Position numbers: made by a program
Source of the DNA: Candidatus Woesearchaeota archaeon
GTDB taxonomy: Archaea; Nanobdellota; Nanobdellia; Woesearchaeales; JAZDKJ01
Direction: 5' to 3'
DNA: 64,000 bases
Assembly: GCA_043803105.1 (NCBI GenBank)
Contig: JAZDKJ010000008.1
Coordinates: 106,787 to 170,786, forward strand
In this document: positions 42,001 through 44,282 of the stretch, piece by piece
Layout: the number at the start of each line of letters is the position of its first letter
Numbering within the stretch: the stretch's first letter is position 1

Positions 42001-44282
42001 CATGCCATCCTTAATGAATCGTCCTGTCCAATATCGAAGTTCGTTTCCAGAAAGTTCAATACTGAGGTACTTAATGATTAATCGATTTGTTCCGTTCCTG
42101 TTACCACTCTGGCTAGAGATAAATGTTATGCTATGCTTTCCATCAACTAGTTCATAGGTATTAGCCATTTATATCACCTTTGCTTATCACATGAGTATCA
42201 TAATTAAATCTTTCTATTCTAAGGCTGGCGTCAAATTCTTAGGGTCTTTGAGAGCCAAACCTAGAAAGGTTTTTAAAACAAAGCACTTTTGCAGTCCCAA
42301 ATGAAAAGAAGCTCGAGACGCTGGAAGAAGAAGCGGCAGATGCGCTGGAAATGGCAGAGAAAGCGCATGAATAAAGAGAAAAGGCGAAGGGCAGCCAAGT
42401 AGACCTAGTTTCTAGAACAATTGCATTGCACATCAGAAATACTTTTAAAAGCTGGAGGAACAACATCTGGAATGAACACCGAACAAATAAACAGGACATT
42501 AGAAGAAGAATTTAGAGCACGAAACAGCGGCAACGGACGATTTTTCATGCCTGAGCAAATCTTTTGTAGGGCATACTTCACCATATCACCACAAGAAAAA
42601 CCAGTGAAACTGGACACAGGGATATGCGGCCTTGTGCAAATAGTTGATGGTTCAAAATCAAACAGAAAAACGAACAACCAATGCAATCTGCTGGTTATAC
42701 AGCAACAATATGCACCTATAACAGACAGGTTTGTCGGGACTGACTTTGATATCGAGCGGTATTCAAGCAACTGGCACAAGCAGCTCGGAGCAGCTGAATG
42801 CGTGCTGGCAATATGGCCAGGAAAAGAGTTAAGAACTCATGGGAATCTGCTGGTGAGGACCGACAAAAACCAGGTGACCGACGTTGCAGCAAACTTCACA
42901 ACAAAGCAATTGTGCGGAAAGGGTTGCGAGGATGATATCAATGCACTACCTGGAATGCCCATACACTATGCAATCCCTGCAGTTGTTGAGATCTATCTGA
43001 AATGTGTCAATGGGCATAAGTGAAACTGATTAAATCATAAAATCTAATGTTTTTTCTTCCGCAAAATTTATTAAGTTGAGGCACTATTTTGTACGTAAAC
43101 GGACAGGGAATTTAGTGATTTCTTGGTTGTTGAGATATTTAAAGTGCTTTCACACGGTATTTCCCCGATAGATTTATAAATAACCCATAAATCCAAAGTG
43201 ATGCTTCGAAATCGCCTCCATTTTTCTTGTCAACGTGACTACTCAAATCGAATTTGAGTACGAGAGAGTAACTCTGAATTGTGCTTGAGAGCCAATTTCC
43301 AATTGCGACCGAAAAATAATACCCGTTGATCCTGCGGGAGGTTGCTGCTATTAGGGTTCGACTAAGCCATGCAAGTCCTGGCCTCGCAAGAGACCGGCAA
43401 ACTGCTCAGTAACACGTTGATAACCTACCTTAAGGTTCGGGATAACCTTGGAAAACTGAGGACAACACCGGATATGGGTTAAATTCTGGAACGATTTTAC
43501 CTTGAAACGCAAGGCCTTAAGATGGGTCAGCGGCGGATTAGGTAGTTGGTGGGGTAACGGCCCACCAAGCCGAAGATCCGTAGGGGCCATGAAAGTGGGA
43601 GCCCCGAGAAGGACACTGAGATACAGGTCCTAGCCCCACGGGGTGCAGCAGGCGCGAAAATTCTACAATGCACGAAAGTGTGATAGAGGAACCCTAAGTG
43701 CTTTACTTTGTAAGGCTTTTGCCAAGTGTAAAAAGCTTGGCGAATAAGTGGTGGGCAAGACTGGTGCCAGCCGCCGCGGTAACACCAGCGCCACTAGTGG
43801 GAGCCACATTTATTTGGCCTAAAGCGTTCGTAGCCGGTTCAGTAAATCCTTTGTGAAATCATTGCGCTTAACGCAATGGCTGGCGAAGGACACTTCTGAA
43901 CTAGGAACCGGGAGGAGTCAGAGGTATGGGTAGGGGAGCGGTAAAATGCTATAATCCTGCTTAGACCACCTGTGGCGTAGGCGTCTGACTAGAACGGATT
44001 CGACGGTGAGGGACGAAAGCTAGGGGAGCGATCCGGATTAGATACAGCTTTTTTTGGTCGAGCGAACCTCGACACAAAAAAACCTGGGAAAATGTATACA
44101 CTCAAGTGCCATCTTCGATGGCACGGACTAGTAGATCGCAAAAATCTGCTGCTAGTCGAGAAAACCAGGTTCATCATCATAAAAAGCTGCTAATGACCCG
44201 AGTAGTCCTAGCTGTAAACGCTGTGAGTTAGGTGTTGCGTATTCCTCGTGAATACGCAGTGTCGTAGTGAAGACGTTAAACT

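What a model noticed while it worked through the whole genome (the two positions that open the first line are those of the whole stretch)
44045..44196. One hairpin module heads tRNA introns and a 16S rRNA intervening sequence
The 16S rRNA gene is interrupted by a ~152-nt sequence inside GGAUUAGAUA|CCC and by a 33-nt one at C8:151102-151134 inside CUGAA|CUUAAAGG. The larger one starts with a 39-nt hairpin module that occurs in 15 copies in this genome: nine at the start of insertions in tRNA genes or the 16S gene, six outside genes. The family is far rarer in relatives, which suggests recent spread.
Evidence so far: Rfam alignment with 153- and 33-base insertions; sequence; alignment A2 with a compensatory T-A/C-G change in 3 of 11 rows; model R1, 15 distinct hits E<=5.4e-6, 4 not used to build it; 7 of 60 other genomes with 1-5 weaker hits, congener none; 19-base direct repeat around the non-tRNA copy at C5:47106-47147; fold -60.9 kcal/mol, z -4.0.
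(Added by a program. Inside this text positions count along the whole contig: contig position 106,787 is position 1 of the stretch shown here. "Call 12" and the like, gene names such as g00115 and contig names such as C1 are that model's own, and its searches are not shown. The text may have been shortened before it was handed on; [...] marks where a part breaks off. The agent that wrote the report below was given it as the finding of a first reader that could run no searches.)

Follow-up and report, generated by a model that had tools for sequence, protein, structure and literature searches.

The report
Dispersed mini-intron hairpin in archaeal RNAs
The 152-base insert in this archaeon's 16S rRNA gene is an archaeal-type intron whose first part is a small hairpin that also heads tRNA introns and lies scattered beside tRNA genes, which may help show how such introns arrive.

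Summary
Window 44045-44196 interrupts the 16S rRNA gene inside GGAUUAGAUA|CCC. [quoted passage not shown] Its first ~50 nt is a hairpin module, CAGC-U run-variable stem/loop-A run-CCUGGGAAAA.

My model finds 16 strong copies in this genome, plus 5 interrupted ones. Nine head introns: six at T-loop 59/60, two at 53/54 in tRNA-Ser, and one in 16S. Seven lie beside tRNA genes or, once, a promoter. All seven are flanked by direct duplications of the target.

New points:
- The module is itself a complete minimal T-loop intron: the h' hairpin, the GGAA/GGGA strand of the central helix, and the AA bulge.
- It is not private or recent. It occurs in 27 of 100 related genomes and in records named as many DPANN lineages.
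- 6 of 21 relatives with 16S data carry an intron at the same 16S site.
- Elsewhere too, copies are flanked by duplications of 11 to over 56 nt (28 of 96, against 2 of 95 controls).

Best reading: a dispersed, probably DNA-mobile mini-intron that persists in stable-RNA loops because the splicing endonuclease removes it. Neither splicing nor the insertion mechanism is shown.

The parts
43319..45791 (+). 16S rRNA gene, interrupted four times
   Evidence: The 5' end and insertions come from the Rfam RF01959 alignment. The 3' end ...GGAUCACCUCCU was read. CCCGUCA resumes at 45664.
44045..44196 (+). 152-nt BHB intron in the 790-loop hairpin of 16S (equivalently 44044-44195)
   Evidence: Helix h is CGG/CCG with an A.C mismatch. 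Central helix H is UUAG/CUAA. The bulges are AU|A and UG|A. Helix h' is CAGCUUUUU/AAAAAGCUG. The join gives GGAUUAGAU+ACCCGAG.
44045..44094 (+). Hairpin module: CAGC, U7, inner stem-loop GUCGAG-CGAAC-CUCGAC, A7, CCUGGGAAAA
   Evidence: Row 12 of alignment A1. R1 hit at 47.8 bits, E 1.4e-10.
44181..44196 (+). 3' splice region: AAAAAGCUG (h' 3' strand), CUAA (central helix strand), UGA (bulge)
   Evidence: Read. The same CUAAUUA / CUAAAUA end is present in six relatives.
44315..44347 (+). 33-nt mini BHB intron (H ACUG/CAGU)
   Evidence: RNA contigs join 44314 to 44348 in 4 of 4 runs, but they cannot be assigned to this organism.
44513..44540 (+). 28-nt mini BHB intron (H GCCG/CGGC, h' AACUUUUG/CAAAAGUU)
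   Evidence: by eye.
44874..45663 (+). About 790-nt intron after CACACACCG, carrying a LAGLIDADG-like ORF (45192-45695)
   Evidence: The ORF contains LVDGEGSF. The family name is recalled; no Pfam scan was run.
6806..6901 (+). 96-nt T-loop (59/60) intron of a tRNA-Glu(CUC) gene (6710-6915). The module occupies 6806-6837.
26020..26113 (+). 94-nt T-loop (59/60) intron of a tRNA-Glu(UUC) gene (25872-26127). The module occupies 26020-26051.
12876..12907 (+). Module copy outside a gene. It is antisense and abuts the 5' end of a minus-strand tRNA(CAU) gene. Further hairpins and a weak 15-nt repeat of the tRNA end follow it.
45961..45978 (+). 18-nt T-loop mini-intron CAGC..GCUGGAAAA in the spacer tRNA (about 45847-45993). 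It has the same ends as the module but lacks the U/A-run stem.
   Evidence: by eye.

Best explanation
The 152-nt insert is a bulge-helix-bulge intron in the 790-loop hairpin of 16S rRNA. It is presumably cut out by the genome's single splicing endonuclease and the exons joined by RtcB.

Its head is a copy of a small structured element which, in minimal form, is a whole T-loop intron:
- one bulge base;
- a hairpin whose foot CAG/CUG (extended by U run / A run and a variable inner stem) is the h' helix;
- GGAA or GGGA, the intron strand of the 4-bp central helix, which pairs with UUCR or UCCC of the T arm;
- AA, the two intron bases of the 3' bulge.

This mini-intron is a dispersed repeat found across many small-genome (DPANN-type) archaea. 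New copies seem to arise at the DNA level, together with a duplication of 11 to over 56 nt of the target. Insertions into exposed loops of tRNA and rRNA persist because the element brings half of the splicing motif.

Longer introns such as the 16S one consist of the module, extra hairpins, and a second, site-matched 3' end (here AAAAAGCUG-CUAA-UG).

Shown: the anatomy, covariation, distribution, flanking duplications, and presence of EndA and RtcB. Inferred: splicing in vivo, DNA-level mobility, and the direction of events.

The confidence given is for the whole statement. For the narrower claim that the insert is a BHB-type intron I would put about 0.85.
For: BHB in the 16S insert. The canonical register restores the Rfam consensus GGAUUAGAUA-CC. 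The MFE fold with flanks keeps h and h' (z -4.68).

Module as a mini-intron:
- The 36-nt T-loop intron at C12:115067-115102 is the module alone. Removing it, together with one other candidate, yields an ARAGORN tRNA.
- The spacer tRNA has an 18-nt intron with the same ends.
- In the two tRNA-Ser genes, CAGC(C)/GGCUG and UCCC/GGGA(G) form h' and H (sequence).

The hairpin is selected:
- 126 of 126 cells are paired and 0 of 500 shuffles reach the observed covariation score.
- 90 of 109 matches elsewhere have 7 or more consecutive pairs with differing inner sequences.

Spread:
- 16 copies here, plus 5 interrupted.
- 27 of 100 relatives have hits.
- At least 105 stretches occur in named DPANN records.
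- In relatives it heads T-loop and anticodon-loop introns.

tRNA association. 36 of 109 matches lie within 150 nt of an ARAGORN tRNA. On the 105 distinct matches, 14 are T-loop introns, 48 lie near a tRNA and 43 have no tRNA in view.

Insertion footprints:
- All 7 non-intron copies here have flanking direct repeats: six score 14-19.5 and one is weak at 7.5. The 9 intron copies score 8.5 or less.
- Elsewhere 28 of 96 score 11 or more, against 2 of 95 shifted controls.

Recent copying:
- The modules at C7:30613 (53/54, tRNA-Ser) and C6:187268 (59/60, another tRNA) are 33/33 identical.
- The intronic C6:403732 copy equals the non-intronic C12:123944 copy (A1).

Machinery. One EndA ORF of 203 aa and RtcB.
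Against: - No RNA read could be tied to this organism, so splicing is not shown.
- The BHB cutting rule (cut after the second bulge base) is recalled, and the BHB drawings are by eye. My automatic strict scan missed the 16S intron because of the A.C mismatch in h. RNAfold prefers a central helix shifted by one base.
- The flanking duplications vary from 11 to over 56 nt, which fits no known transposase. No enzyme for insertion was found.
- The intron copies have no flanking duplication, so introns and outside copies may arise by different routes.
- Insertion sites outside T loops pair with the module's GGRA only slightly better than random sites do.
- In the 16S intron, and in most long introns, the module's own GGAA-AA is not the 3' site used.
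- At the one orthologous locus examined, the congener has a single copy of the duplicated 19-mer, but the sequence upstream does not align. A clean empty site was not shown.
- U runs of 5-7 inside rRNA and tRNA genes would be expected to hinder archaeal transcription (recalled knowledge). This remains unexplained.
Confidence: 0.5

Rival explanations
1. The module does not move on its own. It rides on tRNA gene segments carried in the attachment sites of integrating plasmids or viruses, as in the Caldiarchaeum model. The tRNA fragments beside 'outside' copies are then att-site remains of such integrations and later deletions.
For: - Three tyrosine-recombinase ORFs of about 430-450 aa lie directly downstream, on the same strand, of tRNA genes with T-loop introns (C7:31539, C10:29288, C6:520267). 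Two of them have a module within 1 kb, and the third has an interrupted module in the T-loop intron.
- 6 of the 7 outside copies here sit next to a full tRNA gene plus a 14-27-nt copy of its 5' or 3' end.
- Sugahara et al. 2012 (PMC3293823; abstract and Discussion read) propose exactly this route for intron gain and tRNA fragments.
Against: - The DNA between the duplicated pieces is only about 40-130 nt, with no element genes.
- Module-only insertions with long target duplications occur in non-tRNA DNA: C5:47110 here, and L034, L045, L086, L092, L111 elsewhere.
- No second copy of the 3' ends of the three integrase-adjacent tRNAs was found in the genome.
- It does not explain the 16S copy.
Confidence: 0.22
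2. The module is simply a conserved functional part of introns, for instance a hairpin that nucleates the h' helix or binds a splicing factor. It is inherited vertically, and the non-intronic copies are decayed pieces of intron-bearing tRNA genes.
For: - The conserved flanks CAGC and CUGGGAAAA coincide with BHB elements.
- The module is found across a whole order and beyond.
- The 16S intron site, with module-like heads, is shared by 6 relatives.
Against: - Identical copies sit at different positions in unrelated tRNAs, and in intron versus non-intron sites.
- Copies occur with no tRNA in view: 43 of 105.
- Flanking duplications are far above control: 28 of 96 against 2 of 95.
- Tandem module arrays occur (L039, L087, L104).
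Confidence: 0.15
3. The 16S insert is an intervening sequence that is excised without ligation, leaving a fragmented 16S rRNA as in some bacteria, rather than a spliced intron.
For: Removal alone would also explain why such an insert is tolerated. No joined form from this organism was seen.
Against: - The ends form the archaeal BHB motif in the register that restores the conserved loop sequence.
- EndA and RtcB are both encoded.
- The insert lies inside a 9-nt functional loop.
Confidence: 0.06
4. The module is a REP/PATE-like hairpin mobilised by an IS200/IS605-type Y1 transposase.
For: - One Y1_Tnp ORF is present (C6:210483-210827, 82 bits).
- Such elements use hairpins and insert next to a short target. 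There is a weak bias T-Y-Y-N-N-A-A just 5' of the module.
Against: - The transposase is flanked by its own, different hairpins (CCGCAC-TTTA-GTGCGG) and not by the module.
- That family makes no target duplication (recalled knowledge).
Confidence: 0.04

Closest known systems
Archaeal bulge-helix-bulge introns in rRNA genes (known from Thermoproteales and, together with group I introns, from Woesearchaeota/Pacearchaeota rRNA genes: Nawrocki et al. 2018, PMC6125680, passages read)
   Same: The insert lies in a conserved rRNA loop. Its ends fold into helix-bulge-helix-bulge-helix. EndA and RtcB are encoded. It coexists with a group I intron in the 23S gene.
   Different: There is no homing endonuclease in this intron. 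Its head is a repeat shared with tRNA introns and with non-genic sites. I found no paper that describes the site in the 790 loop. My list of known 16S intron sites is recalled only.
[quoted passage not shown] 2010; seen only as a passage in the review PMC4090602)
   Same: Near-identical intron sequences occur in different tRNA genes and at different positions. The mechanism is unknown and was proposed to act at the DNA level.
   Different: - A different lineage.
- A defined covarying hairpin that equals a minimal intron.
- It also occurs in a 16S rRNA intron.
- Non-intronic copies carry target duplications.
- It occurs across many phylum-level lineages.
tRNA gene disruption by integrating elements in Caldiarchaeum (Sugahara et al. 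2012, PMC3293823; abstract and Discussion read)
   Same: A tRNA fragment, inserted DNA and a full tRNA gene lie in a row, with recombinase genes next to tRNA genes.
   Different: Here the inserted DNA is 40-130 nt, has no genes, is built of hairpin modules, and also occurs away from tRNA genes.
Bacterial REP/REPIN and IS200/IS605-derived palindromic elements
   Same: Short dispersed hairpins with conserved feet, in many copies.
   Different: The only Y1 transposase here has other hairpins. Flanking duplications are present here. The module doubles as a splicing substrate.

Membership tests
BHB (archaeal endonuclease-type) intron | Two 3-nt bulges on opposite strands separated by a 4-bp helix | tested here: met
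   By eye: UUAG/CUAA between bulges AUA and UGA. RNAfold gives a 3-bp version shifted by one base. The definition of the motif is recalled.
BHB (archaeal endonuclease-type) intron | Flanking helices h (exon-exon) and h' (intron) | tested here: met
   h is CGG/CCG, next to an A.C mismatch. h' is the 9-bp CAGCUUUUU/AAAAAGCUG. Both are in the MFE fold. The motif is therefore slightly relaxed on the h side.
BHB (archaeal endonuclease-type) intron | Cuts at symmetric bulge positions restore the uninterrupted gene | tested here: met
   GGAUUAGAU+ACCCGAG equals the Rfam consensus and the uninterrupted 16S of 12 relatives.
BHB (archaeal endonuclease-type) intron | Splicing endonuclease and RtcB ligase encoded | tested here: met
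   PF01974 at 96.8 bits in a 203-aa ORF. PF01139 at 550 bits, with one TAG inside the match.
BHB (archaeal endonuclease-type) intron | Intron absent from mature RNA, exons joined, intron circularised | tested here: inconclusive
   One search used contigs of four metatranscriptomes laid at 93% likeness. Forms without the insert cannot be told apart from relatives that lack it.
Transposed tRNA intron family (Thermoproteales type) | Similar intron sequence in tRNA genes of different identity and at different positions | tested here: met
   positions 59/60 and 53/54 here, and the anticodon loop in relatives.
Transposon / MITE | Target-site duplication of fixed length, and a cognate transposase | tested here: not met
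   Duplications vary from 11 to over 56 nt. No transposase is linked to the module.
Retroelement-mediated insertion | Reverse transcriptase encoded | tested here: not met
   No RVT_1 match at E<=0.01 in the 96%-complete genome. Other genomes were not tested.
Any Rfam family | Match at gathering score | tested here: not met
   In the window only SSU rRNA, LSU rRNA and a group I intron pass. Nothing is reported at the four module copies.

The most novel reading that the evidence does not exclude
This hairpin is the first recognisable mobile BHB intron: a 30-50-nt 'ready-to-splice' cassette. It copies itself into DNA across a whole archaeal superphylum and leaves target duplications. It is tolerated in tRNA and rRNA loops because it carries its own half of the splicing motif, and it then grows into longer introns. 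If so, it gives a concrete answer to how archaeal tRNA and rRNA introns arrive, and a sequence handle for catching insertions in the act.
Probability: 0.35. Interest if true: 0.85.

Novelty: new variant of a known kind. Interest (0 to 1): 0.72.

Why it matters
How endonuclease-spliced introns enter archaeal tRNA and rRNA genes is an open question. The review PMC4090602 calls the mechanism unknown, and the abstract of a 2026 preprint on Asgard tRNA introns (10.64898/2026.10.13.758758) ends with 'how they arrive remains open'.

Here a single covarying sequence ties together several things:
- minimal T-loop introns;
- longer tRNA introns at several positions;
- a 16S rRNA intron;
- non-genic copies that carry insertion footprints.

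It does so in many lineages, which makes the question testable through strain polymorphism, in vitro cleavage and circular-RNA sequencing.

There are practical consequences too. Standard tRNA finders see only 6-9 tRNA genes in this 96%-complete genome. 16S primers that cover the GGATTAGATACCC site, which the insert splits, would presumably fail on the genomic gene; this is my inference, and no primer was tested.

Tried and rejected
RNA evidence. Four RNA metatranscriptome runs were laid as contigs on the whole 16S gene.
- No cover on 44051-44139, and none on most of 44941-45652, although the exons are deeply covered.
- Contigs join 44314 to 44348 (the 33-nt insert) in 4 of 4 runs (7, 7, 15 and 8 contigs).
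- Contigs join 44870 to 45743 in 3 of 4 runs.
- For the 152-nt insert the only listed joint is one contig with 16 replaced letters. Loose ends at 44045 run on into exon-2-like sequence with a mismatch.
- At 93% likeness all of these may come from relatives without the inserts, so I do not count them for or against splicing. 48 further joints were not shown.

Strict automatic BHB scan. One search's output was unusable, being too long and mixing both strands.

Complete tRNA census. It was not achieved. ARAGORN finds 9 genes, and Rfam tRNA finds 6 above cut-off and 17 at E<=10.

Split-tRNA reading. I considered that a 5' fragment|module pairs in trans with a reverse-complement-module|3' fragment. 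I rejected it because the fragments' acceptor strands do not complement each other, and each fragment lies next to a full gene of the same sequence.

Mature-tRNA cDNA reading. Rejected, because the full copies still carry introns.

Other routes:
- Y1 transposase: its flanking hairpins differ from the module.
- Reverse transcriptase: none found.
- TnpB-like: only a sub-threshold hit.
- attR copies of the integrase-adjacent tRNAs: none found.

Empty site in the congener. The result is ambiguous. The second locus tried gave no usable alignment across the insertion.

Target complementarity to GGRA outside T loops. It is barely above a random-site null.

Literature. Six searches found no description of this module. 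The motif-string search returned only unrelated eukaryotic papers. Supplements were not consulted.

The search of earlier findings was not open.
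Full report
WHAT IS THERE. The window comes from a 1.56-Mb archaeal genome: 13 contigs, 96% complete, 43-45% G+C by contig. 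Rfam places an archaeal SSU rRNA gene from 43319 and an LSU gene at 46088-49355 with a group I intron. The SSU alignment has three local insertions: 153 bases at GGAUUAGAUA, 33 after CUGAA(U), and 29 after GCCGUG. Read directly, the first is 152 nt, 44045-44196. A fourth insertion of about 790 nt follows CACACACCG. The gene resumes with CCCGUCA at 45664 and ends near 45791.

THE INSERT AS AN INTRON. The ends of the 152-nt insert can be drawn as a bulge-helix-bulge motif:
- Exon helix h is CGG/CCG. This is the native stem of the 790-loop hairpin, with one A.C mismatch.
- The central helix is UUAG/CUAA.
- The bulges are AUA and UGA.
- The intron helix h' is CAGCUUUUU/AAAAAGCUG.
Cutting after the second base of each bulge (a recalled rule) joins GGAUUAGAU to ACCCGAG. 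That is the Rfam consensus and the sequence of relatives without an insert.

RNAfold, with 19 and 14 nt of exon, gives -57.1 kcal/mol (z -4.68; 0 of 200 shuffles as good). It contains h and h', with the central helix one base out of register. The intron alone gives -50.5 kcal/mol, z -5.79. The 33-nt and 28-nt inserts can be drawn the same way (H ACUG/CAGU and GCCG/CGGC). The genome encodes one splicing-endonuclease ORF of 203 aa and RtcB.

THE MODULE.
- Count: the insert begins with CAGC, a U run, a stem-loop, an A run and CCUGGGAAAA. A regex found 16 such copies. The model R1, built on their alignment A1, recovers these 16 at E<=4.1e-8, with the next hit at 2.9e-4. They match by construction. 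Five more copies are split by a nested two-hairpin insertion of about 55 nt.
- Covariation: in A1 all 126 cells of the 8-bp stem are paired. Four pairs change on both sides (22 cells). No shuffle of 500 reaches the covariation score, and sliding the partner destroys it.
- Contexts: nine copies head insertions in stable-RNA genes. Six are at T-loop position 59/60, in C6:403763, C6:187299, C8:113592, C8:132806, C12:115068 and C12:181546. ARAGORN finds the tRNA after removal of BHB candidates for five of these; the sixth is by eye.
- Contexts, continued: two copies are at 53/54 in tRNA-Ser genes (C7:30613, C8:106053). By eye, each of these genes also has a second T-loop intron and a 6-nt micro-exon UUCAAA. 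The ninth copy is in 16S. Seven copies are outside genes.

WHAT THE MODULE IS. The T-loop intron at C12:115067-115102 (36 nt) is the module and nothing else:
- one bulge base;
- CAG...CUG as the foot of the hairpin, which is h';
- GGAA opposite UUCA of the T loop;
- AA as the bulge.
The tRNA in the rRNA spacer has an 18-nt T-loop intron, CAGC-loop-GCUG-GAAAA, with the same ends but no U/A-run stem. In the tRNA-Ser genes CAGC(C)/GGCUG and UCCC/GGGA(G) play these roles.

So the conserved flanks of the module are the intron-side half of a BHB motif fitted to the T arm, and the covarying stem is an extended h'. Longer introns carry the module, further U-run/A-run hairpins, and a second 3' end fitted to their site. 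In the 16S intron that end is AAAAAGCUG-CUAA-UG. The 790 loop resembles a T arm (GGAUUAGAUACC against GGGUUCAAAUCC), and the cut lies at the equivalent place.

DISTRIBUTION. R1 finds hits at E<=0.01 in 27 of 100 other genomes, 1-8 each. These are 99 from different families of the same order plus the same-genus genome G001, which has none and is 84% complete. In the eleven best loci I read:
- the module heads T-loop introns in five;
- it heads an anticodon-loop intron in one;
- it follows a tRNA fragment that is repeated in a full tRNA gene downstream in four;
- one locus (L019) I left unclassified.

The titles name Iainarchaeum, Woesearchaeota, Micrarchaeota, Nanoarchaeia, Aenigmatarchaeota, Undinarchaeales, Altiarchaeales and others. 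A few bacterial records look like chance matches without a hairpin. Titles were shown for only 80 of the 105.

Of the 109 matches:
- 90 have 7 or more consecutive pairs;
- 36 lie within 150 nt of an ARAGORN tRNA, among them about ten directly after the tRNA 3' end;
- of the 105 distinct matches, 14 are T-loop introns by my pattern, 48 lie near a tRNA and 43 have no tRNA in view.
That the window's own organism belongs to these lineages is my inference from genome size, relatives and features. No tool named it.

THE 16S SITE IN RELATIVES. The whole 152-nt sequence is not found in 100 relatives; only its module part matches one of them. The site, however, is shared. Of the 21 relatives (out of 40 searched) with a 16S match:
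- 12 are uninterrupted;
- 3 gave single pieces;
- 6 have an insert of 93-144 nt at exactly this place.
All six have a 5' end complementary to the 3' end, and all end in CUAAUUA or CUAAAUA. Several have module-like heads, for example a U-run/A-run hairpin followed by CUGGAA or GCUGG. These fall below R1's threshold. The intron is therefore old or recurrent in the order, not a recent private gain.

FOOTPRINTS OF INSERTION. [quoted passage not shown] Six score 14-19.5 and one is weak at 7.5; the lengths are 14-27 nt with a few mismatches. The nine intron copies score at most 8.5.
- In six cases the repeated piece is the 5' or 3' end of the adjacent tRNA gene.
- In the C5 case it is a promoter-like 26-27-mer, with only 3-4 bases and the module between the copies.
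- In other genomes 28 of 96 copies have such repeats (score 11 or more), against 2 of 95 shifted controls. Lengths run from 11 to at least 56 nt, and the upstream copy usually ends 0-5 nt before CAGC.
- Tandem arrays also occur.
- Identical modules sit in different tRNAs at different positions, and in an intron and a non-intron site.
- At the C5 locus the congener has one copy of the repeated 19-mer and no module, but its upstream sequence does not align.

ENZYMES.
- No reverse transcriptase was found.
- The one Y1 transposase has its own, different hairpins.
- Three large tyrosine recombinases lie directly downstream of tRNA genes with T-loop introns. This keeps alive the rival reading that integrating elements carry intron-bearing tRNA segments (Sugahara et al. 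2012, PMC3293823; abstract and Discussion read).

LITERATURE.
- Similar introns in different tRNA genes are known from Thermoproteales, with the mechanism unknown (passage in PMC4090602).
- DPANN EndA types and heavily disrupted, partly unpredictable tRNA sets are noted in PMC5829648 (passages read).
- Group I and BHB introns coexist in rRNA genes of these lineages (PMC6125680, passages read).
- I found no description of this module or of a tRNA/rRNA-shared intron head.

VERDICT. The interpretation 'recent spread' is replaced by 'a widespread, structured mini-intron that is dispersed, probably mobile at the DNA level, and seeds longer introns including this 16S one'. Splicing and the insertion mechanism remain to be shown.

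Noticed in passing
window 48022-48272: Group I catalytic intron inside the 23S rRNA gene (Rfam RF00028, 80.3 bits). The rRNA operon therefore holds both intron kinds.
   Followed up: no
window 44874-45663 (ORF 45192-45695): About 790-nt insertion in 16S after CACACACCG, with a 167-aa ORF carrying an LVDGEGSF motif. It looks like a LAGLIDADG homing endonuclease; the name is recalled and no Pfam scan was run. Whether the intron is BHB or group I was not determined.
   Followed up: partly
window 45847-45993: The tRNA in the 16S-23S spacer is interrupted several times, including an 18-nt T-loop mini-intron. Neither ARAGORN nor Rfam reports it.
   Followed up: partly
G000 whole genome: Only 9 tRNA genes by ARAGORN, and 6 above the Rfam cut-off, in a 96%-complete genome. 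Most tRNA genes seem to carry one or more non-canonical introns.
   Followed up: partly
G000 C8:105990-106290 and C7:30534-30760: Two tRNA-Ser genes appear to have two introns in the T loop (53/54 and 59/60), leaving a 6-nt micro-exon UUCAAA. The second BHB would form its outer helix only after the first intron is removed (by eye).
   Followed up: partly
G000 C6:521478-521389, C6:303953, C6:36804, C7:13130-13215, C8:7981-8062: Module copies interrupted between the hairpin and CCUGGGAAAA by a conserved insertion of about 55 nt with two hairpins (CAGAAAACC..GGUUUUCUG and a GC-rich one). This looks like a nested insertion.
   Followed up: partly
G000 C6:371864, C8:119746 (window 12960-12975), C12:115187, C12:74597, C6:393887, C6:405518, C6:204770: A second repeated hairpin (GAAGGUGCG-AGCUGACUUYNCAGCU), in about 7 copies. 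It usually lies next to a partial copy of a tRNA end and sometimes in one unit with the module.
   Followed up: no
G000 C7:31539-32033, C10:29288-29785, C6:520267-520767: Three tyrosine-recombinase ORFs of 429-451 aa lie immediately downstream, on the same strand, of tRNA genes with T-loop introns. The limits of the presumed integrated elements were not found.
   Followed up: partly
G000 C6:10055-11377: The RtcB match (550 bits) contains one in-frame TAG. Possible causes are an assembly error, recoding or a split gene; this was not examined.
   Followed up: no
L087, L039, L104 (other genomes): Tandem arrays in which a promoter-plus-tRNA-5'-fragment-plus-module unit, or the module alone, is repeated head to tail.
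   Followed up: no
L043, L122 (other genomes): The module follows directly after ...CCA at the 3' end of a tRNA gene. Whether CCA is otherwise genome-encoded in those organisms was not checked. If it is not, that would hint at an RNA intermediate.
   Followed up: no
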